From a virus, in the IMG/VR virus record IMGVR_UViG_3300045988_076381: 64,000 nt of DNA; one strand, written 5' to 3'. Within the stretch, counting starts at the first letter, position 1. Every line of letters starts with the position of its first letter. Shown piece after piece: positions 2,619 through 61,607 of the stretch. The notes beneath the pieces were generated by a model. It did not search any database and was not told the DNA's origin. It was given only the letters and a program-made list of their open reading frames with translations. Position numbers and translations under genes: made by a program.

Positions 2619-3071
2619 CTAATCAATTGCCCCTCCATTTGCTGGCGGAAGTTTTGGAGAGGTATTAGTTACAATAGTATCTAATTTAGTATTTGCCTGA
2701 ATTAAATTAGTATCTATACTAGAGGTATTCGTATGTATAGAAGTAGTTGTATCCTTTATCTGTCCTAAAGTTTCTTTAACAGGATCTAAATCAACATCAA
2801 TATTAGCTAGAGATGCTAATGCTGTATCTAATTTAGCACTAAATGTAGTAGTTAAATTCTCTATTTTAGTTATTAAATCTTGTATTTTAGTATTTGTCGT
2901 ATCTATCTTAGTATTAGTAGTATTTAATTCATTTACTACTGCTGATAATTTCTCTGTTAATAAAGCTATATTCTCTGTATTAAAATCTCCTACTCCTTCC
3001 TTAATCCCTTGTAAAAGTTGGAGGTATAGCTCATTGTAATTGGTTGTTTTATAAAAATCGTTTACGTTCAT
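2619..3071 (-). CDS. hypothetical coiled-coil protein, Thr/Asn-rich
   Basis: 150-aa ORF with heptad-like repeats (TNTKIDTTNTKIQDLITKIENL). Confidence 0.55.
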   Translation of the reverse strand: MNVNDFYKTTNYNELYLQLLQGIKEGVGDFNTENIALLTEKLSAVVNELNTTNTKIDTTNTKIQDLITKIENLTTTFSAKLDTALASLANIDVDLDPVKETLGQIKDTTTSIHTNTSSIDTNLIQANTKLDTIVTNTSPKLPPANGGAID

Positions 3072-3081
3072 TGTGATATAT

Positions 3082-3291
3082 TTAAATTATAAGTTCTATT
3101 ATTTTAGTATTGTCTGTATTTAAAATTTCTTCATTTTTGCATGGTTGAAGTTTATATGTATAACTCTCCTCTTCTGGAGTATATTTAGGTTCGGAGATTA
3201 TTTTATAATATCGTTGTAGTCCTTCTTTTATATAAAATGATTCTGGAAAAGTTAATGTTATTGGTGTAGATTCAAAAGTTGGATTTTGCAT
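3082..3291 (-). CDS. hypothetical protein
   Basis: 69-aa ATG ORF with a TAccTTTG box upstream. Confidence 0.45.
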   Translation of the reverse strand: MQNPTFESTPITLTFPESFYIKEGLQRYYKIISEPKYTPEEESYTYKLQPCKNEEILNTDNTKIIELII

Positions 3292-3315
3292 AAAAGGATT
3301 GATTGTTATGATTTA

Positions 3316-3323
3316 CAAAGGTA
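3316..3323 (-). promoter_or_regulatory. Bacteroidota-type -7 box TAccTTTG
   Basis: Reverse complement of caaaggta, upstream of the start at 3291. Confidence 0.45.
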
Positions 3324-3353
3324 TGTGGTTTTTGTGAGAAATCCTAAAGAAGA

Positions 3354-4108
3354 TTAAGATTTAATTATATTATCATATTTAACTCCATTCCAATAAGGAT
3401 ATAGATAATAATCATCAAGTTTAGCATTTCCGATTCCTACATATTTTTCAAATTCGTCTAATTCATTTATTGGAGTATTCTTGAAATCATCTATTAAACG
3501 AGTATAAAAATCTAGAATAGTAAAATTATTAAATAATACTGTACTTTCTTTATATCTTTCTACTTTTATAAAACCTAAATCCTCTAACAATTTCTCTCTT
3601 TTAATTAAAATATTTTTAGATTTAATCTTTAAAAGTTTTTGTAATAGAGATTTAGTAATAATTAATTTTGGATTTAAGTTATATTGTTTGAAAAATGAAG
3701 TTAGTAATAAACATATAACTCTAATTTCTATATTTCCAACAGGACTACATACAATATATAAATCACTAAAATTATCGCAGAAAGTATATTCATAAACATA
3801 CTCTCCACTATGAGAGATTACATTTTCTTCTGCTTGTTCTTTTGTTTTATCTTCTTCTTTTTTATCTTCTTTGATTGGGATATAATCTTTAAAGATTGTA
3901 ACAACTTTATCTGAATTAAACCATTCTGGCGATCTATTCTATATTCTTCACATAATTTATGTAAATTAGATTCATCTTTACGACTTCCTTCTTTCGAATC
4001 TAATAATATGGCTGTAGGGTTATGTTGTTTATATTGATCAAATCTATGTTCTAAATTAGTAGTATATCCTATTTTATATAAATTTCCTGATTGAATTAAG
4101 TATATCAT
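3354..4108 (-). pseudogene. T5orf172 (GIY-YIG-superfamily) domain protein, disrupted by a 1-nt frameshift near 3927-3934
   Basis: ORF 3818..4108 carries IYLIQSGNLYKIGYTTNLEHRF...LHKLCEEYRID. The expected EWF end of the domain (SPEWFNSDKVV...) continues in another frame with no start codon and runs uninterrupted into ORF 3354..3590. Confidence 0.6.
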
Positions 4109-7892: not shown

Positions 7893-7965
7893 GGTCCCAT
7901 AGCGTAAAGGTTAACGCAAAACACTCATAATGTTGAGATTCTAGGTTCAAGTCCTAGTGGGACCA
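7893..7965 (+). tRNA. tRNA-Met (anticodon CAT; could also be a lysidine-dependent Ile2 type)
   Basis: Hand-folded cloverleaf: acceptor ggtccca/tgggacc, D stem gcgt/acgc, anticodon loop ctCATaa, T-arm ctagg-ttcaagt-cctag. Confidence 0.85.
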
Positions 7966-8090
7966 CGATATTGATTTTCAGGATTTCTGAGGTTTAGAAT
8001 TTCTGGATTAATGTTTTTTGTAATTTTTTTCATGATCAGTGTTTAACATTAGCAACATTTAATGAGATGTGATATCTCCTTCCTTATTAA

Positions 8091-8113
8091 GGAGAGTTAA
8101 TACTCTCCTTTTT
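8091..8113 (+). terminator. intrinsic terminator-like hairpin
   Basis: ggagag-ttaata-ctctcc followed by ttttt. It overlaps an alternative hairpin ctcctt...aaggag (8076-8094). Confidence 0.45.
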
Positions 8114-8229
8114 AAATTTGTTTATTATGAGAAAGATAGATATAAAATACATAATGACAATAATAGGAATATTTATATTTCTATTATTATTATCTTCATT
8201 AGAATCAATCATTAATTCTATTTAAATAA

Positions 8230-8303
8230 GAGCGAATATCCAAATTGGTTAAGGGAATAGTCTGCAAAACTATATTGTGAGAGTTCGAATCTCTCTTCGC
8301 TCT
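8230..8303 (+). tRNA. tRNA-Cys (GCA)
   Basis: Acceptor gagcgaa/ttcgctc, anticodon arm atagt-ctGCAaa-actat, T-arm gagag-ttcgaat-ctctc. Confidence 0.85.
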
Positions 8304-8420
8304 CATTAAATATTATATTTAAAAGGTTATATTCGGAAATATATAAGAATGATATCTTTTAAATACTTTAAAATTATATTAATTAAAATAAATAAAAATA
8401 ATCTTTTAAATATAATAATT

Positions 8421-8690
8421 ATGAAGATCGTGATTAATAGATCCGGAATTGGATTAAATCTATCTCTACCAGCTATAGAGTATTTAATTAAATATAAAGT
8501 AATTAAGTCTCCATTAGATATGAGAAATATTAATAGGAGTAGCCCAAGATTGGTAAGATGTATCGAAGTATTAGGAGATAACGCATCTTTAGATATGTTA
8601 GAAACGATAACAGTTAGAGATGATTTTAAATATAAAATCTCTGAAATCCAAATAGGTAACATCCATAGAGAAATTATCCTCATGGAGTAA
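8421..8690 (+). CDS. hypothetical protein
   Basis: ATG-initiated part of track ORF 8349..8690. The antisense ORF 8327..8683 is low-complexity Ile/Leu and is rejected. Confidence 0.4.
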   Translation: MKIVINRSGIGLNLSLPAIEYLIKYKVIKSPLDMRNINRSSPRLVRCIEVLGDNASLDMLETITVRDDFKYKISEIQIGNIHREIILME

Positions 8691-8858
8691 GATATTTACA
8701 TATGTAAATCTAATTAGTGTACAATAATTAGATATTCCAAGCTCTACTGGTTACAGAGTATAAATAAACCTAGATTTTTAGATTTCCAAATTGACCTAAA
8801 ATCTAATATCTTAGGATTAGATATAAAATAAGCGTGGAATACTTATTGTTAAATCAAC

Positions 8859-8928
8859 TTCTTAGTAGTTTAACTGGTGAAAATGTCATATACAGTAGGA
8901 AATATTAGTTCGAATCCAATCTAAGAAG
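8859..8928 (+). tRNA. tRNA-like sequence, probable pseudo-tRNA (anticodon arm not foldable)
   Basis: 7-bp acceptor ttcttag/ctaagaa, D-loop with GG, T-arm attag-ttcgaat-ccaat (one A-C mismatch). I could find no 5-bp anticodon stem. Confidence 0.3.
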
Positions 8929-9088
8929 TGATAAAGAAACTCATATAATTCATATCTTAATATTAACCCGAAAAAAGGGCAACAGTAGGGTTGGGGTGGG
9001 TTCAGTGCCCTTGAGATAGTATCAAAATCAGCAATAATGCAGATGAGCTGTAACCACCCCTTTTATTAATAATTTTGTTTATATTCTA

Positions 9089-9160
9089 TGCGAGATAGTG
9101 TAAAGGTAACATCCTAGGCTCATAACCTAGAGGATGGTGGTTCGAATCCATCTCTCGCTA
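9089..9160 (+). tRNA. tRNA with CAT anticodon (Met, fMet or Ile2 type)
   Basis: Anticodon arm ctagg-ctCATaa-cctag, T-arm ggtgg-ttcgaat-ccatc, acceptor gcgaga/tctcgc with a mismatched 1:72 pair and a short D stem. Confidence 0.7.
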
Positions 9161-9396
9161 CTATATAATAGACTTCAGATATTTAACGCGGAATATAGAA
9201 GTTTGTTATATTTTATAATTATGCATGCTAATTATAAATCCCAACTCATCCTATGTCTAAGGGGAGTATAAATTAAAAGCAGATCCATCTTTTTGAGTTT
9301 GTATTGGTAATGAGAATAACTCTATAACTTAGAAATGTTATAAAACTTTCTTGAATTTAAGATATAAGGTTTGGGAACTTACATCATTAAATTAAC

Positions 9397-9471
9397 TCCT
9401 CAGTAGCTCAGTTGGCTAGAGCAGCGGACCGTTAATCCGTAGGATCGTAGGTTCAAGTCCTACCTGAGGAG
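9397..9471 (+). tRNA. tRNA-Asn (GTT)
   Basis: Acceptor tcctcag/ctgagga, D-arm gctc-agttggctaga-gagc, anticodon arm gcgga-ccGTTaa-tccgt, T-arm gtagg-ttcaagt-cctac. Confidence 0.9.
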
Positions 9472-9915
9472 CATAATAAAGAGTGTAGTACTAGTGTAGG
9501 ACTCAACGTAACTTATAGGTTTTGTATTGTACATATAAATTTAGTCCTATTGGGTGTCGTATAACCCAACTTAGCTATCGAGTACGGTTAATGATAGCAT
9601 TTTTATCGAACTTTCATAAAAATAATTATATGAGAAACAAGCATTATTTCCTAATAGATTAATCTGATAAACCGTATATTGGAGTTGATACACTTATAAT
9701 TGTCTAATGCAGCTTCGTATTATAAGAAGCAAGTCAATATAAGAAATCAGTTCAGAATAATGTATTGTATTCGACGTGGGATTTAAAATTGTATTTATGT
9801 GATAGATGTATAGAGAGAAGATTAAGACGGAAAATATCTGGAGAAGATCTAATTCCAAATGATCCTGTTAATAATTTATATATACAAATATGTCTAGATT
9901 TATAATTTATTAATT

Positions 9916-10299
9916 ATGAAAAAGAGAGAACTCCCAAAAGAAGTAAAGAGATGGATTAAATTTTTTATAAAAACTAATGCTTATTATAATTTTGATTGGG
10001 CATTTATGTTAGATGTAGAAAAAGAGAAATTAACTCAATGTATTAAATTTTTTACTGATAACGGATGTCATATTAATAATTCCAGAATAATTTCGAAGAT
10101 GCAATTGGCTGTGAGATTATTAGATATTGCTAGGGATGAGGATTTAGATTTTAAAGGTTATGTAAATACTAAGAATATAAATAGATTTATTTCTATAGAT
10201 AAATATGATATTGATATTCTCCCAACTCTTCGAACTGAAAAAGCGTGGTATTTATATAATAAATTAAGATATTATTATATGAAAGAATGGTGGGATTAA
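9916..10299 (+). CDS. hypothetical protein
   Basis: 127-aa ATG ORF embedded in the tRNA region. Confidence 0.5.
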   Translation: MKKRELPKEVKRWIKFFIKTNAYYNFDWAFMLDVEKEKLTQCIKFFTDNGCHINNSRIISKMQLAVRLLDIARDEDLDFKGYVNTKNINRFISIDKYDIDILPTLRTEKAWYLYNKLRYYYMKEWWD

Positions 10300-10308
10300 A
10301 TATATTAT

Positions 10309-10394
10309 GCTAGAATGGTGAAATTGACAGACACTCAGGACTTAAAATTCTGTGGATAGTAATATCCGTGTGGGTTTGAATCCCACTTCTAGTA
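10309..10394 (+). tRNA. tRNA-Leu (TAA), long variable arm
   Basis: Acceptor gctagaa/ttctagt, anticodon arm cagga-ctTAAaa-ttctg, variable stem ggata/tatcc, T-arm gtggg-tttgaat-cccac. Confidence 0.85.
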
Positions 10395-10686
10395 CTATCT
10401 AGATGTAGCAAAATCAGTGAAGTTAAATACAGAAATACGCTTCGTAAGAGAACCTGTAGTCCTTAAAGGATAGTGGTGACACTGAGCCAATCTATTTATA
10501 TAGAAGGTGAGATTCCAAAAACTACAATATTTATAGGGAATCAATCATATAAGAAATTATATGAAATCTCTGATAATCTATAGTGCCTTATAGAAAAACA
10601 GGGGATGAAGTTAAGGCACAAACTTCATTGGGATATATTCCCGGCGAAAGAGATTTTATATATCTCTGGATCTGATTATTTAATAG

Positions 10687-10749
10687 TACTTTGTGCATCG
10701 GATGCACTCCGAGGGATGTGAGGTTAAGGTTCGACTCCTTACAAAGTGC
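10687..10749 (+). other. tRNA-like element lacking a D-arm
   Basis: Acceptor-like tactttg/caaagtg, canonical T-arm taagg-ttcgact-cctta, and an internal hairpin tcgga-tgcac-tccga. It is too short for a cloverleaf. Confidence 0.3.
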
Positions 10750-10779
10750 CTAAGTAGTAATTATTTAAATATTCATATT

Positions 10780-11679
10780 ATGGAAATTAGAAATGAGAAT
10801 AAAGTATTTTTTGGAGAGAGTGGTATTACTTCTACTTCTGCTACATATTTATGTAACATTGCTAGGGAGTTATTAAAAGATATAGAATCATCTTTAAATA
10901 ATATCTCCTTCATTACTGAGGAAGTAACACTCTTTGGATCTGAGAATAAGATTAGAACTAAAGAAGGATATAATTTATCCGAACTATCTGATCTAGATTC
11001 TAAACTTACTAAAGCTGCACAACTAAAAGCATTTATAGCATGGATGAGTGAAGGAATCAAAGCAAAAGATGTGGAAAGTGAGAAACTTAGAGAATATACT
11101 TTATCTGATTTTATAAAGGATTTCCCTGAATATGTAGTACAGAGGTCTAAAGATTCTACACTAGATCCTAATTATGGACTTGGGAAATTAGATGTTTCAG
11201 AACGGGTTAAATATCTCTTCTCAGAAGCTTTAACTTCTTCAATTGGGAAATATATTCATAATAATGGTGCTTTAAGAAAAGCTTATAGCGAGCTTTTAAA
11301 TATTGCACATAACAAAGTGAATATAACCACAGAAGCAAAAGATTCTATAGTTGTAGTCACTAATAAAATCCCAAGTGTGGATACTAAAAAAGTAGAAAAG
11401 ATTATGCTTAAATATCAAGATTTACGAAGAGAGAATGAGAAGGTTCTGAACTCTTTGAAATCTAAGATAAAAAGTTATGATCATGAATATCAAATATATC
11501 TTACTCTTGAAGATAAAGCAGCTTCAGAGTCGTATAATGAAAAGATGGAAGTAGTACGTTCAAAATATAATGAATATGTATTAAATAAGAGATCGGAAAT
11601 TGAGAAACTTAAAATCATCATCCCAGATGGTTTAAGGAGTATTTATAACGATCTTCATACCATCTCAAAAGAAAAATAA
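10780..11679 (+). CDS. hypothetical protein (coiled-coil-rich)
   Basis: The first ATG of track ORF 10693..11679 is at 10780. The upstream part of that ORF is the tRNA-like element. Confidence 0.55.
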   Translation: MEIRNENKVFFGESGITSTSATYLCNIARELLKDIESSLNNISFITEEVTLFGSENKIRTKEGYNLSELSDLDSKLTKAAQLKAFIAWMSEGIKAKDVESEKLREYTLSDFIKDFPEYVVQRSKDSTLDPNYGLGKLDVSERVKYLFSEALTSSIGKYIHNNGALRKAYSELLNIAHNKVNITTEAKDSIVVVTNKIPSVDTKKVEKIMLKYQDLRRENEKVLNSLKSKIKSYDHEYQIYLTLEDKAASESYNEKMEVVRSKYNEYVLNKRSEIEKLKIIIPDGLRSIYNDLHTISKEK

Positions 11680-11957
11680 ATAAAGTAGGTAATACTTAAA
11701 TCCATTTGGATGGAGGTATTTTTATATGTATAGATTATATATATAATAAAATTTAGCTAAATAATATAGACGATAATATAAACTATTAATGCGAAAGAAT
11801 CCTCAAAAGATGTTTTTATTTAAATAAATATACTTATTTAAATATAAACTATACTCCTCTTTCTGTCTTAACCTTAGTCCTTGAGAGGATTCTTGCCCTT
11901 GACATATTCTTTGGCTGTATTTATATAATCTATACATAACTATTTTTAATAAACATT

Positions 11958-12028
11958 TGTCCTATAGTATAATGGTAATACATCTGGTTTTGGTCCAGAG
12001 AATTGAGGTTCAAATCCTCGTAGGACAA
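11958..12028 (+). tRNA. tRNA-Gln (TTG)
   Basis: Acceptor tgtccta/taggaca, D-arm gtat-aatggta-atac, anticodon arm tctgg-ttTTGgt-ccaga, T-arm tgagg-ttcaaat-cctcg. Confidence 0.85.
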
Positions 12029-20862: not shown

Positions 20863-21272
20863 ATGAATAGAAAAGAAAGAACTATCTCCGAAAATATGGA
20901 GAAATTAATGATAGACCAAATCTCAAGAGAATTATATAATCATAATGTATATAGAACATATGCGAATTACTATTATGTAAGAGGATTGTTTAAATTACAT
21001 CTTTATTATGAGATGAGATCTAACGAGGAATATAATCATCATCAATGGATTGTTGATAGATTATATAGAGCCGGAGTTGATTTTAATTATCCAGAAGTAC
21101 CAGCTATTAAATCTAATCATGTTATATTAAAGCCAGAAGATAGTTTTCAGAAAGTAGTAGATTTAGAGATTGAAACTACTATGTATATAAATAAAATGAT
21201 AGAAACTGCGAAAGAGGAGAAGGATTGGCAGACGGAGGGATGGTTAAAGAGGACGTTAAATGAAGAGCAGAT
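20863..21272 (+). CDS. ferritin-like protein, exon 1 of 2
   Basis: Four-helix ferritin pattern (QISRELYNHNVYRTYANYY...SNEEYNHHQWIVDRL...DLEIETTMYINKMIETA...). The ORF runs into intron sequence after LNEEQ. Confidence 0.7.
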
Positions 21273-21464
21273 AAACTTTTGTCTGAAAGTATGGTAACAT
21301 ACAGGTGAATAGATCAAAATCGATGAAGTCTAATTTAGATAATATCGAGGTAAGTATGAATTTAAAGGATTCATACCACTGTAACGCGTAGGTGTTGAAA
21401 CTATTAATTATTTATAAATTATATTTTTGCAGAAGAGATAATTGTTTTTATCGTGGAAGAATAT

Positions 21465-21472
21465 TAACTTTG
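21465..21472 (+). promoter_or_regulatory. -7 box TAacTTTG inside the intron, upstream of the endonuclease gene
   Basis: Matches TAnnTTTG, 31 nt upstream of ATG 21503. Confidence 0.4.
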
Positions 21473-21502
21473 TATTTATTACATTTTAATATTTAAATTC
21501 TT

Positions 21503-22270
21503 ATGGATAAAAACAGAAAACTAGAATTTGAGGGAAAGATATTTCCTACGAATAATTGTGGCGAGCTAAAAATCATCGAATATAATGGAGCAACTAATGT
21601 AGTGGTGGAGTTTATTACTACTAAAACTATACATTCTACCACTATGAATAACATCAAGAAAGGATCAGTATCCGATCCTATGTATCCAACAGTATATGGA
21701 ATAGGATATATGGGTATAGGAGAGTATAAAAGTAGGACTGGGACTAGTCCTCAAACAACTTGCTATAAACGATGGAAAGAAATTCTTAATCGATGCTATA
21801 ATCCTAAATGTTCTGCTTATAAATTTTATGGAGGAAATGGAGCAATTATATGTGAAGAATGGAAAAATTTCCAAAATTTTGCATCTTGGTGGTATTCTAA
21901 CTTTCCAAATTGGGAAGGAATTAAAATTGCTATAGATAAAGATTTATTATGTAAGGGAAATAAGGAATATTGTCCTGAATACTGCTGCTTTTTACCTCAA
22001 GAAATAAACGAAGCTCTTACTTTAAGAAAAAAGGAAAGAGGGGATTATCCAGTTGGAGTACGGTTAAAAGAAGGAAAAATTATTGCTCAAATTAATTACA
22101 TGGGAAATAAAAAACATTTAGGAACATTTTCCACTGTTGAAGATGCTTTTGCAAAATATAAAATAGAAAAGGAAAAGTGTATGAAAGAATATGCTGATAA
22201 ATACAAAAATATACTTTCGGAGAGAGTGTATCAAGCATTATATAACTACACTATAAATATAGATGATTAA
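21503..22270 (+). CDS. intron-encoded AP2-domain homing-endonuclease-like protein
   Basis: C-terminal GVRLKEGKIIAQINYMGNKKHLGTFSTVEDAFAKYK is an AP2-like DNA-binding motif. The ORF lies wholly inside the intron. Confidence 0.55.
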   Translation: MDKNRKLEFEGKIFPTNNCGELKIIEYNGATNVVVEFITTKTIHSTTMNNIKKGSVSDPMYPTVYGIGYMGIGEYKSRTGTSPQTTCYKRWKEILNRCYNPKCSAYKFYGGNGAIICEEWKNFQNFASWWYSNFPNWEGIKIAIDKDLLCKGNKEYCPEYCCFLPQEINEALTLRKKERGDYPVGVRLKEGKIIAQINYMGNKKHLGTFSTVEDAFAKYKIEKEKCMKEYADKYKNILSERVYQALYNYTINIDD

Positions 22271-22441
22271 TAGAATAAAATATACCCAAGAGTGATCTAC
22301 TCCTACAGGTAATGCTGAGGATGAAAATGTACGCTGAACCGTCTGATGATTAAATCAGAATATCTTTATTTACATCTTCAATAAAGTAAGGAGGAGACTC
22401 CCGGAAGTAAGAGATAAAAAACTCTTACGATAACAAAATTG

Positions 22442-41544: not shown

Positions 41545-42201
41545 ATGGAAAAAATCTCAATCTCATTAGATCGTGAATTAGATCTAATGACACAATATAA
41601 TCTATCAGCCGAGGAATGGTGGATTATACAATTATTATTTCTCGCTCAATATCCTGAGGGAAGGATAGATCCTTTAGAACGATATAGTAAAATTATAGGT
41701 GGATTTAAATATGATATAATTGAATCTCTCCAATCTAAAGGAGTATTAAAAAAGATGAATATTAAAAAAGGAGATCATTTTGAGATAGATGATTTACAGT
41801 TTAATTATGTAAAAGGTGAAGATAAGAAAACATATCCATTAGATATTCCATTCACTGCTAATTTTATTAAGTCTTATTTAAAACATTCTGGGGAATTAGG
41901 GAAGGAATTGTTCCTAGAATACCCAAGTTTTATATACATTAATAATTCTCCTGTAAATGCTCGTAGTATAACGACTGGGAATCATTTCGGATCTATGGAA
42001 GATTTCTTTTTCTTTTACGGAAAGACTATAAAATGGAATCCAACATTACATAGAGAAATAATTGACCTGCTACAATGGGGAAAAGAAAATGATATGATAA
42101 AAATGGGGATTTCTACATTCGTTATTAACCAATCATGGATTGCTTTAAAAGAGGCTAGGGATAAGGGTATGGGATCGGTGGATATAAATACTCTTATATG
42201 A
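41545..42201 (+). CDS. hypothetical protein (possible replication organiser by position only)
   Basis: 218-aa ORF with ATGA overlap with the helicase gene. Confidence 0.5.
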   Translation: MEKISISLDRELDLMTQYNLSAEEWWIIQLLFLAQYPEGRIDPLERYSKIIGGFKYDIIESLQSKGVLKKMNIKKGDHFEIDDLQFNYVKGEDKKTYPLDIPFTANFIKSYLKHSGELGKELFLEYPSFIYINNSPVNARSITTGNHFGSMEDFFFFYGKTIKWNPTLHREIIDLLQWGKENDMIKMGISTFVINQSWIALKEARDKGMGSVDINTLI

Positions 42202-42344
42202 ATTTAATTGATTCTTTTTATCAAAAAGTAGAAGAAGGGAAGAAAGGGAATAATATGGGTATACCATCCGGATTTCCTAAATTGGATAAGTATATATATG
42301 GTATACAAAGAAGGTTTATGAGCACAGTTATTGCCGATTCGGGT
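42198..42344 (+). CDS. DnaB-like SF4 replicative helicase, exon 1 of 2
   Basis: Ends ...VIADSG, the first half of the Walker A motif. Confidence 0.75.
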
Positions 42345-42657
42345 AAATTAAGTGCCCCTATTTAATACAAATAAATAGAAAACCATTTGAATTGCTAGGA
42401 ACTCGCGAAGATTTAGTAACTAAAACATCAGAAGAAATTCTAAATGTAAATGTTAAAAATACTAAATTATGTGATAATTAGCAGCTAAGCTCCTAAGGAT
42501 GTAATCTATGGAGAAAGTTCAACGACTATCTCGAAAGAGAGTAGGGCTAAGTAGCTCGAAGCGGATGGTATAATATTTTAATATTATAATGAAATAGTCT
42601 AATCTTACACGAAAGTGTAAGAGTATATATGGAAACGATATATACGTAATATAATTG
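42345..42657 (+). mobile_element. group I intron (family A), ORF-less
   Basis: gttcaacgacta at 42517 (classical R element), gaaatagtc at 42591 (S-like), gccc 11 nt in can pair with exonic gggU, and a terminal G. Removal gives ADSG-AGKSS. Confidence 0.75.
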
Positions 42658-43638
42658 GCAGGTAAGAGTTCTGTGGCCATATTCATGTATATCTATAAAC
42701 CTTTAGTTTATTCCTTAGAACATCCAGAGATACCTGTAAATATTCTCGCATTAAGCTTTGAAATGTCAAAAGAAGTACTTCTCGCTAAACTTCTCTCTCT
42801 TTATATCCTTGATAAATATCATATTGATATTAGTTATTCTGAAATATTCTCATTAGATAAACCTGTTTCAAACGATAAACTTAAATACATCTACGATGCT
42901 AGGGATTGGTTAACTAAAGTAGATGATAAATTAACCATCTACGATACTCCTTTAAATTCCACTGGAGTATATAATATCCTCAGAGCATGGGCTGGATATT
43001 TTGGGAAGTTTGAAACAGACGATAATGGTGAGAGGTATATAAAGAATGATAGAAATCAATATTTAATAGCAGTATTAGACCATTGTAAGTTATTAAAGAA
43101 TAATGGTTCCGGAATTAAGCATGAAATAGATGAAACAGCTAAACATTTTATTTATTACCGTAATCTGTGTGATATGACAATATGCGCTGTTCAACAAGCT
43201 AATAGACAATTTAAATCTATGGATAGAAGAAATTCCGAACATAATTATCTCGAATTACAAGATGCTCAGGATACTGCGGACATGACACAAGCATCAGAAA
43301 TTGTTATTGGTGTCTATCATCCATTCAGAGAGAAGAAGGCTAAGTGTGAAGGGTTTGATATTAAGAAATTACGAGATAACTTTAGGTTGATCCAATTGCT
43401 TAAAGGACGATTTGGACAGTCTGATGTTGTTGAGGGTTGTATTTTCCAAGGAAGTATAGGATATTTTAAAGAATTAGATCCTCCCGAAGATGGAAAGAGA
43501 TTTGATTACGGTAGAGTTCTGAGAATGGATTATTTATTCGAAGAATTTGATAATCAACAAAAGAAAAAAGAAGAGTTAGATAGAGTTATTAAAGAAGATG
43601 AAGAAGATGAAGTACTTGAATTTAATTTTAATGTATAA
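42658..43638 (+). CDS. DnaB-like SF4 replicative helicase, exon 2 of 2
   Basis: AGKSS (Walker A), SFEMS (H1a), AVLDHCKLL (H2), QQANRQ (H3). Confidence 0.8.
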   Translation, partial: AGKSSVAIFMYIYKPLVYSLEHPEIPVNILALSFEMSKEVLLAKLLSLYILDKYHIDISYSEIFSLDKPVSNDKLKYIYDARDWLTKVDDKLTIYDTPLNSTGVYNILRAWAGYFGKFETDDNGERYIKNDRNQYLIAVLDHCKLLKNNGSGIKHEIDETAKHFIYYRNLCDMTICAVQQANRQFKSMDRRNSEHNYLELQDAQDTADMTQASEIVIGVYHPFREKKAKCEGFDIKKLRDNFRLIQLLKGRFGQSDVVEGCIFQGSIGYFKELDPPEDGKRFDYGRVLRMDYLFEEFDNQQKKKEELDRVIKEDEEDEVLEFNFNV

Positions 43639-43725
43639 ATGGCTATAGTATTACCAACAAGTAAAATACAACCAACAGAAACTGAACCTAGGGTATTAGT
43701 TATATTCTCGAAGCCAAAGAGTGGT
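43639..43725 (+). CDS. Sak4/AAA_24-like ATPase, exon 1 of 2
   Basis: MAIVLPTS...RVLVIFSKPKSG ends in the middle of the Walker A motif. Confidence 0.7.
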
Positions 43726-43765
43726 AAATTTTATTAAAATATTTGGATAAGTAAAATTTTATGGA

Positions 43766-43773
43766 TATCTTTG
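43766..43773 (+). promoter_or_regulatory. -7 box TAtcTTTG, with TTTG 20 nt upstream, inside the intron
   Basis: TTTG at 43742-43745 and TAtcTTTG at 43766, 29 nt upstream of ATG 43802. Confidence 0.5.
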
Positions 43774-43801
43774 TAATTATTATTAATACAAATATATAAT
43801 T

Positions 43802-45025
43802 ATGAAGAATAAAATTTTACAACTAAGTAAGAATTGTAATAGTCTAGAAATAGCTAGAATACTATCATTATCTCTAAATGAAGTAGAAAAAGTTTTAATT
43901 GATGAATATTTTCAAAAGAAATGGAAGATATCTAAAAAGGATCTTGAAGAATTAGCTGCAAGAATCTATAATGAATCTCCAACTCTACTATCAGATGAAT
44001 TTAATATATCAGAAGTAACATTAAAAAAATATTTAGCAGATTGCAAATTGTTTAATACTAAGAAAAATGTTATCTATGTTCAAAAATCAGAGGAAGAAAT
44101 TGAAAAATTAGTTCCGGATATAGTTTTAGATTATAATAACCAATTATCTATTGCACAATTAATGGTTAAATATAAGTTATCTAAAGATAAAGTTAAAGAA
44201 ATTTTACATAATAATGAAATTTCAACCGGAAAAGTGACCTGTAATGAACATATATTTGATATAATTGATTCGGAAGAAAAGGCATATTGGCTAGGGTTCC
44301 TATATGCAGATGGAGCAGTGGGGAGTGCTGATAATACTATTGAATTAGCATTAAAACTTTTGGATTGTAAACATCTATATAAATTCAAAACTTTTATAGA
44401 AGCCAAAAGGGATATAAAAATAGAAACTAGTAAAGTTAAAAGATGCAGATTCTCTGTAAGTAGTAAACATTTAAAGTCACAACTTATTAAATTAGGTTGT
44501 ACTCCTCAAAAGTCCTTAACTCTTAAATTTCCAACTAAAGAACAAGTTCCAGATGACTATATCATTCCATTTATAAGAGGGTATTATGATGGAGATGGAA
44601 TATTAACATATAGTTGTTCTACCACTGGTAGAACAGTTTTAGCTACTGGTATGTTGGGAACTGAAAATTTTTTAACTGGAGTTTTAAGTAAGTTTAAGTA
44701 TCCATTACATTCTATTTTGCGTTTAGCTAGTTTGGAAGGATCAAGCGAATGTAAACAAGTAAATTGGTCAAAAACTGATTCTGAGGAGTTTTTAAATACT
44801 ATTTACAAAGATGCTACAATTTTTTTGGATAGAAAATATTTACGATACAAATATTTTAAAGACAATGGATTTGCCGTCCAAAAAAGTAATTTTTTGGATA
44901 ATGACAGAGCAATATCGGAAGAGTCTAAACAATGGATTAATCAGTATTTTAGTATAGATATTGATTCCTTATTGCATGATAATTCCGAGATAAATATAGA
45001 AAGTAACGATTCTATATCATCGTAA
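43802..45025 (+). CDS. intron-encoded LAGLIDADG homing endonuclease (double-motif)
   Basis: YWLGFLYADGAV and FIRGYYDGDGIL. The stop codon lies inside the conserved intron block tcgTAAcgcg. Confidence 0.85.
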   Translation: MKNKILQLSKNCNSLEIARILSLSLNEVEKVLIDEYFQKKWKISKKDLEELAARIYNESPTLLSDEFNISEVTLKKYLADCKLFNTKKNVIYVQKSEEEIEKLVPDIVLDYNNQLSIAQLMVKYKLSKDKVKEILHNNEISTGKVTCNEHIFDIIDSEEKAYWLGFLYADGAVGSADNTIELALKLLDCKHLYKFKTFIEAKRDIKIETSKVKRCRFSVSSKHLKSQLIKLGCTPQKSLTLKFPTKEQVPDDYIIPFIRGYYDGDGILTYSCSTTGRTVLATGMLGTENFLTGVLSKFKYPLHSILRLASLEGSSECKQVNWSKTDSEEFLNTIYKDATIFLDRKYLRYKYFKDNGFAVQKSNFLDNDRAISEESKQWINQYFSIDIDSLLHDNSEINIESNDSISS

Positions 45026-45203
45026 CGCGTAGGTGTTGAAACTGTATTTATTTAAATACAGAATAAAATATACCCAAGAGTGCTCTGCTCCTATTTAATA
45101 GGATGAAAAAGTACGCTAAACTGGATCAGAAATAACTGATCGATAATCAATGAGGGAAACCTCCAGAACTAAAAGATAAAAAGCTTTTAGGATAATATAA
45201 TTG

Positions 45204-45995
45204 AAATCAACGGCTTTAAGCCTATTAGATAATAACTTAATACTAGATACAGAAAAGGGAACAGCGTATATTGAAGCATTAAAAGTAGATATTTCTTCAG
45301 TTAAAGATATATTAGAAGTATGTAAACAAGTTAAGGCAGCAGGATATCCTTATAAATATATAACTCTAGATACTTTAACTTCTTTAGAGGAAATTCTACA
45401 ACCGTATGCTTTAAATCTATGGAAGAAATCTAACGCATATAATCCAGAAAAGAATCCAGAACAACTAAAAGTAACTGATGTATATAGTTTACCTTTTGGG
45501 TTAGGCCAAAAGTATATGAGAGATTCATATTTAGCAGTAATCGGATTATTACAACAAGTATGTAAAAGAATTATTCTAGTATGTCATTCAAAAGATGCGA
45601 AAATAAATGAAAATGAATTAACTATAAAAGATATTGATTTAGCTGGAAAATTATCTGATATTATTGCATCTAGATATGATGGAGCTGGATATTTATATAG
45701 GGATATAAATGATAATACTATTATTACTTTTGATATAAAACAGCTTGCAGCAGAATGTAAATGTAGAGTTCCTAGATTAGATGGTAAGAAGTTTGTATTA
45801 ATCGAGAATCGAAATGGGGAATTAATACCTCATTGGGATCGTATTTATTCTTCCGAACCTTATAGTGGAGAAGATGTAGTTACTACTCCCCAGATTAATG
45901 TTACAGATATTTTAGATAAGGAAGATCAATCTGAAAATTCTAACATATCTGAAGAGGAATCTGAAGTAGATAAACTTTCAAATATAGAATTATAA
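45204..45995 (+). CDS. Sak4/AAA_24-like ATPase, exon 2 of 2
   Basis: KSTALSLLDNNLILDTEKG...ITLDTLTSLEE...; acidic C-terminus. Confidence 0.7.
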   Translation, partial: KSTALSLLDNNLILDTEKGTAYIEALKVDISSVKDILEVCKQVKAAGYPYKYITLDTLTSLEEILQPYALNLWKKSNAYNPEKNPEQLKVTDVYSLPFGLGQKYMRDSYLAVIGLLQQVCKRIILVCHSKDAKINENELTIKDIDLAGKLSDIIASRYDGAGYLYRDINDNTIITFDIKQLAAECKCRVPRLDGKKFVLIENRNGELIPHWDRIYSSEPYSGEDVVTTPQINVTDILDKEDQSENSNISEEESEVDKLSNIEL

Positions 45996-51361: not shown

Positions 51362-52636
51362 AAGTAAAATTTTTTTATTGTATTTTATTTGTTTTATTTC
51401 ATTAAATGTATTTAATTTGTATATTATTAAATTATACAATAAAAATACATTTATGAATAATCTAAATCAAGCTATTAGTGATTACGAACATTTATTTATA
51501 GGAATTTGTGAATTAAGTAAAAAATATAAAATTCCTAATAAAGAAATTAGAAAAGCGTTAGAAGATAAAGGATATTATTTAGGAAAAGGAGTATCTCCAA
51601 AAAGTGTTGTGCATATTAAACTTGCAGTAGAGGAATATAAAAATATTCTTAATGCTGGTGAAGAACCTAATATTCATCAACTGGCATTAAAGTATGATAT
51701 TTCCGATACGTCTATAAAAGACAATTTAATTAGATTAAATCTTCCTGTTGTAAGATACCCTAAAAAAATCCATTTTGATGAACATGTCTTTGATGTTATA
51801 GATACTGAAGAAAAAGCATATTGGCTAGGATTTTTAACTGCTGATGGGTATATTTATAGTAGAGATAATACATTTGGAATTAGTCTAGCTAGTATAGATA
51901 AGCATCATGTAGAAAAATATGCCACATTTCTTAAATGTCCTCAACATGTTAAATTTAAGAATAACGAATATGCTGGAATATATAGATGTGATTTAGGAAA
52001 CGCTCATGTAAAGCAAGTATTACAAAAATATGGATTTACTGCTTCTAAATCTTTTGACTGTACCTTTTTAAAAGACCAGTTTTTTGCAAATTCCGATTTA
52101 ATAAGACATTATATTAGAGGATATTTTGATGGAGATGGCTGTGTCAGTTATAAAAAAAAGTATAGAAAAACAATTAATGCCACTATTTATATTCCGATAG
52201 TTTCTATAGTTGGAACAGAAGCTTTTTTACAAGAATTAAGAAATAAATCAAATTTAATTTGTCTTTTTCAGTCACAACAAAATCTATGGAATTTATATGG
52301 ATCTGGAAAAAAGGCAAAAGATTTTCTTTATTACATTTATAATAACGCTACTATTTATTTAGATAGAAAATACAATATTTATAGAAATTATATTGCCCCA
52401 CACTTAGAGAAATCAAGTGTTCCGCAGTGGCCAATATCGGTGGATACTGAAATGTAAATACCGAGATAAATTCAGAGATTACGAAAGGCTCTGAATCATC
52501 GTAACGCGTAGAAGGTGAATAAATATAATCCTTCCAAGAGTGGCTGCCACCTTAAAGGGTGAAAATGTACGCTGAACTATATCGAATAACAAGATATAGA
52601 AATAAAGGATAAAAAGCCTTTATGATAACAAAATTG
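51362..52636 (+). mobile_element. group I intron (family B) carrying a LAGLIDADG endonuclease gene
   Basis: Blocks gtaacgcgtag (52501), ccaagagtg (52534), aaaatgtacgctgaac and the 3' end gataacaaaattg. Removal gives DLKTTG-KPWYLFPG. Confidence 0.75.
51453..52457 (+). CDS. intron-encoded LAGLIDADG homing endonuclease
   Basis: YWLGFLTADGYI and YIRGYFDGDGCV; the first ATG of track ORF 51378..52457 is at 51453. Confidence 0.85.
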   Translation: MNNLNQAISDYEHLFIGICELSKKYKIPNKEIRKALEDKGYYLGKGVSPKSVVHIKLAVEEYKNILNAGEEPNIHQLALKYDISDTSIKDNLIRLNLPVVRYPKKIHFDEHVFDVIDTEEKAYWLGFLTADGYIYSRDNTFGISLASIDKHHVEKYATFLKCPQHVKFKNNEYAGIYRCDLGNAHVKQVLQKYGFTASKSFDCTFLKDQFFANSDLIRHYIRGYFDGDGCVSYKKKYRKTINATIYIPIVSIVGTEAFLQELRNKSNLICLFQSQQNLWNLYGSGKKAKDFLYYIYNNATIYLDRKYNIYRNYIAPHLEKSSVPQWPISVDTEM

Positions 52637-55395: not shown

Positions 55396-55697
55396 TGATT
55401 GTATTTAAATACAATTTGTGCTAATAATAAGAAATTATTATTCGAAACTAGGTTAACTGCTGGGACGCCTGAGATGGTAATCAGCAACCAAGCTACAGAT
55501 TTAAATTCTGTAGAAGGCTCATCGACTATTCCTGAAATGGAAGTAGAATCAAGCGATTCGAAATGCCTAGCCCTTAGCATTATATCTAACACAGATATAG
55601 ATGAAGGTGAAGATATAGTCAGTTCTCATATTAATAAGGAAGTATGAGGAGGTTTTATTAACCCGTATAAGAGTAGCGAACTTATATGAACACGAAG
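55396..55697 (+). mobile_element. group I intron (family A), ORF-less
   Basis: aagatatagtc at 55610 is an exact match to the S element and tcatcgacta at 55519 is R-like. A P1 hairpin places U55395 opposite G55418. The intron ends in G. Removal gives GDSNH-DGDW. Confidence 0.7.
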
Positions 55698-55835
55698 GAC
55701 GGTGACTGGGGATGGCTAAATAATATTGTTCTTGCCTCTAAATTAGAGCAATTAAATATAGAATCTTATATTTCCGATCTTCCAATTGATAAATTTGATG
55801 TTGGAAATAATTCTATACTATTCATGCATGGTGAT
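55698..55835 (+). CDS. Mre11/SbcD-like metallophosphoesterase, exon 2 of 3
   Basis: DGDWGWLNNIV...NNSILFMHGD; 138 nt, in frame with both neighbours. Confidence 0.65.
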
Positions 55836-56405
55836 ATATTTTTCATATTTTTAATATAATTATTTGGGTTCCATAGAAATAATTTATATTTGTTAAATAA
55901 TAATATATTTAATAAATAAAGATCATTCTAAAATGCTCCTTTCCTTATTAGGAACAGAAGATTTTTAAATTCTATACAAGATGTATTTTCTACTAAGTAC
56001 ACTTTGGAATATAATCATAATGATAAGAATTCTAAAACTAGAGTACTAGAAATAGCTTGTAGACCAGGGCTTAACATTTTACATAAATTATATTCACACT
56101 CAAAAATATATTTAAAAAGAAAATATGAAAGATATTTAGAATATTGCCGTCTATATGAGGAATCATATAGAGAATTAGAAACCAATAACGGGGAAGGCTG
56201 TGATGTCAATCCCGTGATAAGTACAGAAAGTAAAGAGTCTGTGCCATCGTAACGCGTAGAACTTGAACCTCGAAAGAGAATAAAATAGTTCCAAGAGTGG
56301 TTTCTACCCCAACACTTTTATAAGTAGTGGGTAAAAAGGTACGCTGGACTATAGCAAAAAGAAGCTATAGAAGTTAGGATAAAAAGCCTAACGATAACAA
56401 AATCG
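55836..56405 (+). mobile_element. group I intron (family B) with a decayed LAGLIDADG gene
   Basis: Blocks gtaacgcgtag (56249), ccaagagtg (56291), aaaaggtacgctggac and the 3' end gataacaaaatcg. Removal gives FMHGD-KDSDSQFKG. Confidence 0.7.
55933..56252 (+). pseudogene. remnant of a LAGLIDADG homing endonuclease gene
   Basis: Fragments LLGTEDF and ...IYLKRKYERYLEY...SVPS-stop are colinear with the C-terminal third of 43802..45025 (MLGTENFL...IFLDRKYLRYKYF...SISS-stop). Both LAGLIDADG motifs are missing and the frame is broken. Confidence 0.6.
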
Positions 56406-59741: not shown

Positions 59742-60573
59742 AAAATGTCTGGGATTTAATAAAGCGATTTATTATCTAAACTTTCTTAATTGCTGGGAAC
59801 TCCTAAAGCATTTTCTTACTAATTATTAATTTTAAATACTATAGTGACAATGGAAAATGATGTTACAATGGACAATCAGCAGAATTTATCTCTCTTCACT
59901 CCGGTAAAAGGTTATGAAGATTATTATTTAATTAACGAAGATGGAGATGTTTATTCTATTAGAAGTAAGAGATTACTAACTTCTCATTATAAGCATCGAT
60001 ATTGGCAATATGAATTTAATGTAAACGGAAAGGTTACTTATCCACAAAAACATAGATTAGTGGCTTTAACATTTATTCCTAATCCGGACAATAAGCCGTA
60101 TGTGAATCATATTGATGGTAATAGAAATAATAATTATGTATCTAACTTAGAATGGTGTACAGCTAAAGAAAATACGGCTCACGCTAGAAGAGTTGGATTA
60201 ATAACCGATGATGAATATGTAGAATATACTTTATTAAATTCTAATAAAGAGGTATTATACTCTGCTTTCGGATATAAGAAATTTTTACAAAAGACAGGAA
60301 TGTCTGATGGTGTTTTATATAGAAGTAAAAATACAAATAAACCAATAAGTAGAAGGAAATTTAAAGGATGTTATGTTTATGTAAACAGACAGCCTAAAGG
60401 ACGTAAAGAGATATAGATTTTCAACGACTATCCCGAAGGGAGTACATTACAAGCTAATGGTAATGGAAACAGAAAGCATCTCTCGTAGATGTTGATATAG
60501 TCTGATCTTATATGAAAATATAAGCAGTTCATAAGAGAACGCAGTAATTCTTGCGAGATTACTGGAACACTTG
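59742..60573 (+). mobile_element. group I intron (family A) carrying a NUMOD4-HNH endonuclease gene
   Basis: ttcaacgacta at 60420 (R), gatatagtc at 60494 (S), agcagttcataagagaacg near the 3' end, and a terminal G. Removal gives GGFLAP-GPNGL. Confidence 0.8.
59850..60416 (+). CDS. intron-encoded HNH homing endonuclease (NUMOD4 + HNH_3 type)
   Basis: GYEDYYLINEDGDVYS (NUMOD4) and VNHIDGNRNNNYVSNLEWCTAKENTAHA (HNH). Confidence 0.85.
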   Translation: MENDVTMDNQQNLSLFTPVKGYEDYYLINEDGDVYSIRSKRLLTSHYKHRYWQYEFNVNGKVTYPQKHRLVALTFIPNPDNKPYVNHIDGNRNNNYVSNLEWCTAKENTAHARRVGLITDDEYVEYTLLNSNKEVLYSAFGYKKFLQKTGMSDGVLYRSKNTNKPISRRKFKGCYVYVNRQPKGRKEI

Positions 60574-61338: not shown

Positions 61339-61607
61339 AAAATATTGGGCATTTAAATAGTAATATTTAAATATAAACACCGTGAATTGCTGGAATGGTT
61401 TATTTCTATATAAACCTAATCAGCAGCCAAGTTAAATCGGGTTCAACGACTATCTAGAAATAGAGTACAGTGTAAGCTAATGACACTGGAAGCGCGGTGC
61501 TCCTATTATTTAAATAGGATGATGATATAGTCTAATCTATATGGTGACATATAGCAGTTCATAAGAGAACGTATATAAGAGTTGCGTCTTATATAGAATA
61601 TATAATG
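61339..61607 (+). mobile_element. group I intron (family A), ORF-less
   Basis: gttcaacgacta at 61441 (R), gatatagtc at 61524 (S), and the same agcagttcataagagaacg block as the first RNR intron. Removal gives TTCIKP-DGNISTL. Confidence 0.8.

What the first reader, a model, noticed from the sequence alone, without database searches (positions are those of the whole stretch)
42198..45995. Adjacent helicase and ATPase genes both split inside Walker A, by introns of different families
The helicase P-loop is cut as IADSG|AGKSS by an ORF-less family A intron. The neighbouring AAA_24-like ATPase P-loop is cut as KPKSG|KSTAL by a LAGLIDADG-bearing family B intron.

Both cuts follow the codon GGT, and both introns begin AAATT. 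Two unrelated ribozymes thus target the same protein motif in back-to-back genes. This suggests repeated selection of the P-loop DNA sequence as a homing site. Alternatively it reflects ectopic homing driven by short sequence similarity (GGT|AAA...).
Basis: partly seen in the sequence, partly recalled or inferred. Interest (0 to 1): 0.65.

Follow-up and report, generated by a model that had tools for sequence, protein, structure and literature searches.

The report
Two mobile introns split neighbouring P-loops
In a large crAss-like gut phage, the replicative helicase gene and the ATPase gene next to it are each interrupted, inside the ATP-binding P-loop codons, by a different mobile self-splicing group I intron; this is an ordinary though clear example of selfish introns settling in the most conserved parts of essential genes.

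Summary
The DnaB-like helicase is split IADSG|AGKSS by a 313-nt ORF-less insert (42345-42657). The AAA_24/Sak4-like ATPase is split KPKSG|KSTAL by a 1478-nt insert (43726-45203) that carries a LAGLIDADG gene.

Twenty-three near-identical phage contigs show each insert present or absent independently. The empty sites confirm these boundaries, with one caveat. The I2 junction alone is ambiguous by 4 nt, and the terminal-G rule resolves it.

Both inserts are group I introns:
- **I1:** scores 83 bits on Rfam RF00028 when searched alone. Relatives carry a longer version with a GIY-YIG endonuclease gene.
- **I2:** belongs to a widespread phage family that RF00028 misses. Its group I helix topology is supported by covariation in 78 sequences.

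The shared GGT and AAATT are not informative. Intron-less ATPase alleles read GGG. The cuts lie at different positions of Walker A (two residues before GK versus between G and K).

P-loop targeting looks real. Relatives of I2 sit at the G|K junction of at least five ATPase families, including crAss-like helicases. Transfer between these two genes is not supported.

Dense introns in crAss-like phages and P-loop inteins are already published. This is a new member of a known kind. Splicing and endonuclease activity are inferred, not shown.

The parts
42198..42344 (+). DnaB-like helicase exon 1 (49 codons, ends ...IADSG, last codon GGT)
   Evidence: ORF and translation. Pfam DnaB_C spans the junction. 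It is contiguous with exon 2 in 11 intron-less relatives.
42345..42657 (+). I1: ORF-less group I intron (family A, IA2-like). The guide GCCC is at 42354-57. Helices: P2 42358-78; P3 42383-89/42562-68; P4 42393-97/42479-83; P6 42490-42517; P7 GACUA 42524-28/UAGUC 42595-99; P7.1 42529-40; P8 42569-88; P9 42604-21; P9.1 42624-44. It ends in G at 42657.
   Evidence: RF00028 scores 83.1 bits, E 6e-22, over the full model when searched alone. The MFE fold recovers P1, P2, P3, P4, P8, P9 and P9.1, z = -3.8. The core is conserved with three other family A introns of the window. Empty sites give exact ends.
42399..42481 (+). Stretch of I1 (P5 extension) identical to the 3' end of the GIY-YIG endonuclease ORF carried by the 1194-nt version of this intron in relatives L004 and L017
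   Evidence: L004 ORF 4910-5824 hits Pfam GIY-YIG at 8.9e-8. Coordinates.
42658..43638 (+). Helicase exon 2 (starts AGKSS...). The H4 motif LIQLL|KGRFG at 43401|43402 is an empty third intron site here.
   Evidence: The third site is filled in L016-L023.
43639..43725 (+). AAA_24 / Sak4-like ATPase exon 1 (29 codons, ends ...KPKSG, last codon GGT)
   Evidence: The last 7 nt differ from all intron-less alleles by synonymous changes.
43726..45203 (+). I2: group I intron of family B, with its endonuclease gene in the P1 loop. It ends in G at 45203.
   Evidence: Present at 99.9-100% identity in L012 and L013, and absent from the other 21 related loci. Structure evidence is given under the core entry below.
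43802..45025 (+). Double-motif LAGLIDADG homing endonuclease gene (407 aa; motifs YWLGFLYADGAV and IRGYYDGDGIL). Its last ~40 codons overlap the guide sequence and P2-P6, and its stop codon lies in J6/7.
   Evidence: PHROG 4645 'endonuclease' at 4e-52. It is 33% identical (4e-39) to the ORF of the window's intron at 51362-52636, which hits Pfam LAGLIDADG_3 at 9.6e-11. Its own Pfam hit is sub-threshold (0.032).
44868..45203 (+). I2 ribozyme core. The P10/P1-extension strand GAUUU is at 44868-72 and the guide GCCGU at 44873-77. Helices: P2 44878-97; P3 44905-10/45082-87; P4 44915-20/44983-88; P5 44923-25/44978-80; P6 44994-45017; P7 45025-31/45112-17; P7.1 45032-74; P8 45089-45103; P9 45121-66; P9.1 45170-89.
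   Evidence: The hand-derived structure was tested on 78 non-redundant family members. 83.5% of cells are paired against at most 42.5% when partners are slid. The covariation score is 0.42 against at most 0.11, with 0 of 500 shuffles as high. RF00028 does not match it.
45204..45995 (+). ATPase exon 2 (starts KSTALSLL...)
   Evidence: A diagnostic synonymous change lies at +6.

Best explanation
Two independent mobile group I introns occupy the Walker A codons of two neighbouring replication genes of a large, intron-rich crAss-like phage.

**RNA level (inferred)**
- Each intron should fold into the group I core, and its guide pairs with the last exon bases. In I1, GCCC pairs with GGGU. In I2, GCCGU pairs with GUGGU.
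- In I2, GAUUU pairs first with the intron start AAAUU and later with the exon 2 start AAAUC (P10).
- Guanosine-initiated splicing then rejoins the exons. This would restore ...ADSGAGKSS... and ...KPKSGKST....

**DNA level (inferred from population data)**
- The introns spread by endonuclease-driven homing during co-infection.
- I2 encodes a LAGLIDADG enzyme.
- I1 is a derivative of an intron that encodes a GIY-YIG enzyme and has lost that gene.
- Repair copies the intron plus a few flanking bases. This explains the tight cluster of synonymous differences around the I2 site.

**Why the P-loop (inferred)**
- Its DNA is conserved across phages and cannot easily mutate to escape.
- For family B, the ribozyme's own guide needs GGU|AAR, which is the codon pair of the Walker A G-K.
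For: **Shown by sequence**
- The boundaries are exact, with U before the 5' splice site, a terminal G, and phase 0.
- Empty and filled alleles occur in 97-100% identical genomes. I1, I2 and a third helicase intron assort independently.
- I1 meets the Rfam group I threshold.
- The family B topology P3-P4-P5-P6-P7-P7.1-P3'-P8-P7'-P9 is supported by covariation.
- Intact endonuclease genes are present.

**Evidence for homing**
- I2 is 99.9-100% identical in the window and in L012/L013, while their ATPase exon 2 is only 92.8% identical.
- Five positions are fixed differences between all intron-bearing and all intron-less alleles. They lie at -6, -5, -4, 0 and +6 (0 = last exon 1 base) and include a TCC to AGT serine switch.

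**Evidence for P-loop targeting**
- Family B introns sit at G|K[ST] in several other loci:
  - L026: GESGRG|KTT
  - L041 and L086: GTKGTG|KTV
  - L046: GAAGIG|KTS
  - L047: AAA_24, with exon 2 starting at HMM position 15
  - L083: SF2 helicase
  - MT835492: FASSGIG|KSS, and an SF2 helicase G|KSR
  - cr6_1: GISGSG|KSS

**Published context**
- Dense introns in crAss-like phages, including in ATP_43b, are reported in PMC7886860.
- Inteins in the P-loops of DnaB, MCM and RFC are reported in PMC4760082.
Against: - No RNA data were available, so splicing is inferred.
- RF00028 does not recognise I2 or 20 other family B loci.
- The P1 helices are short, with 4-5 exon base pairs.
- I2's endonuclease misses Pfam's LAGLIDADG threshold and has no relative in the PDB by sequence.
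- I1 has no endonuclease of its own, so its current mobility is uncertain.
- The intron-linked exon tract is short. It could reflect selection for P1 pairing or for resistance to cleavage rather than co-conversion.
- The survey of family B sites used one exact DNA pattern capped at 120 hits. The proportions are therefore not unbiased.
Confidence: 0.85

Rival explanations
1. One intron seeded the other. This would be ectopic homing or reverse splicing between the two adjacent genes, guided by the short shared sequence GGT|AAA. It is the first reader's alternative.
For: - Both junctions read GGT|AAATT, and both introns end AATATAATTG (the decamer occurs 5 times against 1.7 expected).
- Both guides contain GCC.
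Against: - The ribozyme cores differ. P7 is GACUA/UAGUC in I1 and GCGUA/UACGC in I2, and RF00028 hits one but not the other.
- The endonuclease families differ.
- Intron-less ATPase alleles read GGG|AAA.
- The cut positions are offset by two codons.
- GGTAAATT occurs at chance frequency.
- The A/U-rich tail ending AAU(U)G is also seen in other family A and family B introns of the window.
Confidence: 0.04
2. Coincidence. The phage is so full of introns that two happen to fall in Walker A, with no preference for that motif.
For: The window holds at least eight introns, in RNR-like, phosphoesterase, nuclease, ferritin-like, helicase and ATPase genes. Most family B members sit in other kinds of site.
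Against: - Walker A is about 8 of 375 and 8 of 292 codons. Uniform insertion would give about 6e-4 for both.
- The same G|K junction is occupied in at least five ATPase families and in three crAss-like helicase lineages.
- The other window introns also sit in catalytic motifs: GDSNH|D, FMHG|K and DLKTTG|K.
Confidence: 0.07
3. The introns are kept because they regulate replication genes. Splicing at the ATP-binding site would act as a conditional switch, as proposed for P-loop inteins.
For: Only by analogy with the intein literature (PMC4760082). Both interrupted genes belong to the replication module.
Against: Each intron is absent from many otherwise near-identical genomes. They are therefore dispensable and behave as selfish, recently mobile elements.
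Confidence: 0.04

Closest known systems
Phage group I introns of the IA2 type with GIY-YIG endonucleases (T4 td/I-TevI, Staphylococcus Twort/K-like introns)
   Same: - I1 matches RF00028 over its full length, with P7.1/P7.2 inserts.
- It has blastn similarity to Staphylococcus, Vibrio, Enterococcus and crAss-like phage introns.
- Its long form carries a GIY-YIG gene.
   Different: - The endonuclease gene lies in the P1 loop and reads through P2-P5.
- The window copy has lost it.
- The host site is the helicase Walker A.
Introns of crAss-like phages described by Yutin et al. 2021 (PMC7886860)
   Same: - The phage group is the same: tblastn hits to Crassvirales, related contigs of 130-167 kb, and many introns.
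[quoted passage not shown]
   Different: - Those introns were found through endonuclease domains only.
- ORF-less introns, ribozyme families, exact sites in Walker A and population polymorphism were not described there.
Inteins in the P-loops of DnaB, MCM, RFC and other ATPases (Novikova et al. 2016, PMC4760082)
   Same: - Homing elements occupy the ATP-binding P-loop of replicative helicases and other ATPases.
- DnaB inteins use the P-loop and motif H4. These are the two motifs where this phage lineage's helicase carries introns.
   Different: Inteins splice at the protein level, whereas these elements are RNA introns. The exact residues differ.
Family B-like introns in published phage genomes (Bacillus phage AR9/PBS1, crAss-like cr6_1)
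   Same: - The core sequence is similar.
- The AR9 topoisomerase II CDS is annotated as a join of three pieces around such a match.
- The cr6_1 helicase is split GISGSG|KSS by a family B intron with an endonuclease.
   Different: - In cr6_1 the pieces are annotated as separate genes rather than as an intron.
- I2's endonuclease was found in only two IMG/VR contigs.

Membership tests
Group I intron (I1) | Scores above the curated threshold of the Rfam RF00028 covariance model | tested here: met
   83.1 bits against a gathering score of 50, E 6.4e-22, model 1-253, when 42335-42665 is searched alone. It was missed in the wider searches.
Group I intron (I1) | U before the 5' splice site paired to a guide G (P1), a terminal G, and a P3-P9 core with the P7 pseudoknot | tested here: met
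   GGGU|A with guide GCCC. The intron ends ...AAUUG. P3, P4, P8 and P9 appear in the MFE fold. GACUA/UAGUC is invariant among four family A introns.
Group I intron (I1 and I2) | Precise removal restores an intact gene, as shown by intron-less alleles | tested here: met
   There are 11 empty helicase sites and 20 empty ATPase sites with exons abutting at the predicted bases. For I2 the junction is ambiguous by 4 nt (AAAT), which the terminal-G rule resolves.
Group I intron (I2, family B) | Scores above the threshold of RF00028 | tested here: not met
   No RF00028 match at E up to 10, even for the core alone. There was none in 20 other family B loci at E up to 0.01.
Group I intron (I2, family B) | Group I helix order (P3-P4-P5-P6-P7-P3'-P8-P7'-P9) supported by compensatory changes | tested here: met
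   - Across 78 sequences, 83.5% of cells are paired against at most 42.5% for slid controls.
- 60 of 74 pairs show double changes.
- The long-range P3 is 85% paired, P6 96% and P7.1 98%.
- P7 is invariant, and P8 is only 49% paired because of alignment problems.
Group I intron (both) | Guanosine-dependent self-splicing | not testable with these tools
   No RNA or biochemical data are available.
LAGLIDADG homing endonuclease (I2 ORF) | Match to a curated LAGLIDADG profile, and two LAGLIDADG motifs with acidic residues | tested here: inconclusive
   - Its own Pfam LAGLIDADG_3 hit is E 0.032, 14.9 bits against a cut-off of 22.5.
- It is homologous (4e-39) to a window paralogue that passes at 9.6e-11.
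- Both motifs are visible in the sequence.
- PHROG 4645 'endonuclease' matches at 4e-52.
GIY-YIG homing endonuclease (ORF of long I1 in L004/L017) | Match to Pfam GIY-YIG above the cut-off | tested here: met
   8.9e-8, 32.8 bits against a cut-off of 22.6.
DnaB-like replicative helicase / AAA_24 ATPase (host genes) | Profile match across the splice junction, and a Walker A at the cut | tested here: met
   DnaB_C at 4e-10 and AAA_24 at 1e-17. PHROG 19 and PHROG 124 match. The alignment to G40P places the cut in ARPS|MGKT.
Mobile (homing) intron | Presence/absence polymorphism among close relatives, with the intron more conserved than its flanks and flank changes linked to the intron | tested here: met
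   Endonuclease cleavage itself was not testable.

The most novel reading that the evidence does not exclude
Family B is a widespread phage group I ribozyme family that the Rfam group I model does not detect. It contains a lineage, usually with LAGLIDADG genes and the guide GCCGU, that is specialised for the G|K junction of Walker A. This lineage has hopped between at least five non-homologous P-loop NTPase families (AAA_24, AAA, AAA_5-like, SF2 helicase, DnaB-like helicase). The hopping would be possible because the ribozyme's own P1/P10 pairing needs GGU|AAR. It would be an RNA-level counterpart of the P-loop inteins.
Probability: 0.5. Interest if true: 0.55.

Novelty: new member of a known kind. 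Interest (0 to 1): 0.35.

Why it matters
- **Annotation:** both genes would be miscalled as fragments. ORF-less I1 would be missed by endonuclease-based intron screens, and family B introns by Rfam-based ones.
- **Population data:** the near-identical relatives give natural filled and empty sites for two homing systems, ready for cleavage and splicing assays.
- **Wider question:** the recurrence of one intron family at the Walker A G|K junction of unrelated ATPases could explain why homing elements, introns and inteins alike, collect in P-loops. That motif offers a conserved DNA target that also fits the ribozyme's guide.

Tried and rejected
- **Rfam on the whole window and on 42000-45500:** no hit in either insert. 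For I1 this was a filter loss, corrected by the narrow search.
- **Megablast of the region against GenBank phages:** no match.
- **PDB sequence search with the I2 ORF:** nothing.
- **First by-eye P1 for I2:** I tried pairing the exon with UCUUUG near the 5' end. I dropped it once the guide GCCGU was found just upstream of P2, at the 3' end of the ORF.
- **First reading of the window intron near 21296:** I read it as following GGT. That was wrong. GUAUG-GUAA-CAUAC is its P2, and the 5' splice site is after CAGAU at 21268.
- **Search for relatives of I2's endonuclease in IMG/VR:** it returned only the two contigs already known, so the donor lineage was not identified.
- **Regex search for the 5' exons of L047, L083, L129 and L069:** it failed. 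Those P-loop assignments rest on exon 2 and profile alignment only.
- **Not run:** covariance-model building, structure prediction and the large protein searches. They would not have changed the verdict.


Full report
**What is there**

The window is 27.5% G+C. tblastn of the two spliced proteins finds only Crassvirales and unclassified gut phages, at 27-39% identity.

The helicase reading frame runs 42198-42344 and resumes at 42658. The ATPase frame runs 43639-43725 and resumes at 45204.

Joined at these points, the products match Pfam DnaB_C (4e-10, residues 21-316) and AAA_24 (1e-17, residues 18-199). They also match PHROG 'DnaB-like replicative helicase' and 'Sak4-like ssDNA annealing protein'.

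The helicase ADSGAGKS aligns with ARPSMGKT, the Walker A of the SPP1 G40P helicase. I1 therefore cuts two residues before the invariant GK. I2 cuts between G and K. The motif is the same, but the position is not.

**Empty sites**

A protein-guided scan of IMG/VR returned 23 loci with 94-100% identical helicases, on contigs of up to 167 kb.

| Element | Present | Absent |
|---|---|---|
| I1, 313 nt | 9 loci | 11 loci, exons abutting GATTCGGGT\|GCAGGTAAGAGT |
| I1, 1194-nt form | L004, L017 | (same 11 loci) |
| I2 | L012, L013 (both lack I1) | the other 21 loci |
| Third helicase intron at LIQLL\|KGRFG (motif H4) | L016-L023 | the window and the remaining loci |

L023 is truncated, so its I1 state is unknown.

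The three elements assort independently among genomes whose exons are 97-100% identical. This fixes the intron ends and shows recent gain or loss.

**I1 is a group I intron**

The whole-window and 3.5-kb Rfam searches missed I1. Searched alone, it scores 83.1 bits on RF00028 over the full model. The earlier misses were filter losses caused by an 80-nt insertion in P5.

The MFE fold recovers P1 (GGGU/GCCC), P2, the long-range P3, P4, P8, P9 and P9.1, with z = -3.8. The P7 strands GACUA/UAGUC are invariant among four family A introns of the window.

The long form in L004 carries a 304-aa GIY-YIG gene (Pfam 8.9e-8). The gene lies in the P1 loop and reads through P2-P5. The window's P5 extension (42399-42481) is that gene's 3' end.

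**I2 is a group I intron of a family Rfam does not see**

RF00028 gives nothing for I2, even for the core alone. It also gives nothing for 20 related loci.

Four copies in the window share the motifs CATCGTAACGCGTAG, CCAAGAGTG and GTACGCTGAAC. Seventy-eight non-redundant sequences were aligned.

A structure derived by hand from I2 has the group I order P2-P3-P4-P5-P6-P7-P7.1-P3'-P8-P7'-P9-P9.1. On that alignment:
- 83.5% of cells are paired, against at most 42.5% with slid partners.
- The covariation score is 0.42, against at most 0.11.
- None of 500 shuffles reaches the observed values.
- 60 of 74 pairs show changes on both sides.
- P3 is 85% paired, P6 96% and P7.1 98%.
- P8 aligns poorly, at 49%.

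The structure was derived from one row of this alignment, which favours it somewhat against the slid controls.

The guide GCCGU (44873-77) pairs with the exon end GUGGU. The adjacent GAUUU pairs with the intron start AAAUU and, alternatively, with the exon 2 start AAAUC (P10). That accounts for the intron beginning AAATT.

The ORF lies in the P1 loop and runs through the guide and P2-P6. It stops in J6/7.

**The endonuclease**

The 407-aa ORF matches PHROG 4645 'endonuclease' at 4e-52. It misses Pfam's LAGLIDADG cut-off (0.032) and has no PDB relative by sequence.

It is 33% identical (4e-39) to the ORF of the window's intron at 51362-52636, which passes LAGLIDADG_3 at 9.6e-11. Both LAGLIDADG motifs are present in the sequence.

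**Signs of homing**

I2 is 99.9-100% identical in the window and in L012/L013, while their exon 2 is only 92.8% identical.

All intron-bearing alleles differ from all intron-less ones at -6, -5, -4, 0 and +6, where 0 is the last exon 1 base. CCAAAATCCGGG|AAATCT becomes CCAAAGAGTGGT|AAATCA, and every change is synonymous. Beyond +19 the intron-bearing alleles differ from each other.

The TCC to AGT serine switch cannot arise through single synonymous steps. This fits co-conversion from a diverged donor. The G to T change at position 0 is required for the U·G pair in P1.

GGT is therefore a property of the intron-bearing allele, not of the target.

**Is the P-loop a real target?**

Family B introns lie at G|K[ST] in several other genes:
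- **AAA_24:** L026 (GESGRG|KTT); L047 (exon 2 starts at HMM position 15, as in the window); L063.
- **Classical AAA:** L041 and L086 (GTKGTG|KTV); L048.
- **AAA_5-like:** L046 (GAAGIG|KTS); L129.
- **SF2 helicases:** L083; also L069, at G|YGKT.

In MT835492.1 the DnaB-like helicase is split FASSGIG|KSS by an ORF-less family B intron. The SF2 helicase 2 kb upstream is split G|KSR.

In the RefSeq crAss-like phage cr6_1, the helicase is split GISGSG|KSS by a family B intron with an endonuclease. The pieces are annotated as separate genes.

In a neighbour-joining tree of the cores, a clade with the guide GCCGU holds nine P-loop sites from four ATPase families. These are interleaved with HG|K and TTG|K sites. 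The tree is rough, and the sample is biased by the search pattern.

Uniform insertion would put both window introns in Walker A with a probability of about 6e-4.

**What is not meaningful**

GGTAAATT occurs 6 times in the window against 5.2 expected. The shared 3' decamer AATATAATTG occurs 5 times against 1.7 expected. A/U-rich tails ending AAU(U)G also occur in other introns of both families.

The two empty sites have no extended similarity.

**Comparison with the literature**

Yutin et al. 2021 (PMC7886860) reported crAss-like genomes of 145-192 kb with up to 14 introns. [quoted passage not shown] Those introns were found through endonuclease domains.

Novikova et al. 2016 (PMC4760082) showed inteins in the P-loop and H4 motif of DnaB, and in the P-loops of MCM and RFC.

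AR9's topoisomerase II is annotated as a three-piece join around a family B-like match.

Searches for group I introns in Walker A or the P-loop found no paper describing this in the held library.

**Verdict**

The elements are two ordinary, independently mobile group I introns in a phage group known to be full of them.

The preference for the P-loop is supported. Transfer between the two genes is not.

Splicing and cleavage remain inferred.

Noticed in passing
window 43401|43402; loci L016-L023: There is a third polymorphic intron site in the same helicase, at motif H4 (LIQLL|KGRFG). Close relatives carry inserts of 310, 375 or about 1390 nt there, with a family B-like 3' end. The site is empty in the window. 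The cultured crAss-like phage 'Rudgehvirus jaberico' (OQ198719) also has its helicase split near ...RLKLL| by an intron with a GIY endonuclease. P-loop and H4 are the motifs where DnaB inteins insert.
   Followed up: partly
window 21269-22441: A family B intron lies in a ferritin-like gene, with a 255-aa ORF (21503-22270, no Pfam hit) in the P7.1 loop. Its 5' splice site is after CAGAU (21268), not after the GGT at 21295. GUAUG-GUAA-CAUAC is its P2.
   Followed up: partly
window 51362-52636: A family B intron with a LAGLIDADG gene (Pfam 9.6e-11) splits a nuclease-like gene at DLKTTG|KPW. The 359-aa ORF at 51378-52457 is the endonuclease, not an exon.
   Followed up: partly
window 55396-55697 and 55833-56405: Two introns lie in one metallophosphoesterase-like gene. 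A family A-like intron is at GDSNH|D, and a family B intron with a decayed ORF is at FMHG|KDS. Both sites are in catalytic motifs.
   Followed up: no
window about 60370-60573 and 61339-61607: Two family A introns lie in a ribonucleotide-reductase-like gene. The second is the only intron in the window found by the default Rfam search (101.7 bits). The first reaches only 22 bits.
   Followed up: no
window 42648-42657 and 45194-45203: I1 and I2 end in the same decamer, AATATAATTG. I2 departs from its family's consensus (GATAACAAAATTG) towards I1 at two positions. This may be chance or a shared 3'-end constraint, and it remains unexplained.
   Followed up: partly
window 42335-42665 against the whole window: The Rfam group I model found I1 only when the search was restricted to the intron itself. 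Default and 3.5-kb searches missed an 83-bit match, so negative Rfam scans of A/T-rich phage DNA are unreliable for introns with large insertions.
   Followed up: yes
L146 (MT835492.1) 1-3100; L150 (NC_055894.1) 1423-3428: Two other crAss-like phages have the DnaB-like helicase split at G|K of Walker A by family B introns. MT835492.1 also has a P-loop intron in the neighbouring SF2 helicase. So a pair of P-loop introns in adjacent genes recurs with a different gene pair.
   Followed up: partly
window 7893-12028: The default Rfam scan called seven tRNA genes in this stretch, which is typical of large crAss-like phages.
   Followed up: no
loci L014 and L020, helicase junction: Two intron-less helicase alleles read GGC|GC instead of GGT|GC, with further synonymous changes upstream. 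Without the U they could not form the P1 wobble pair, so they may be alleles refractory to a functional I1.
   Followed up: no
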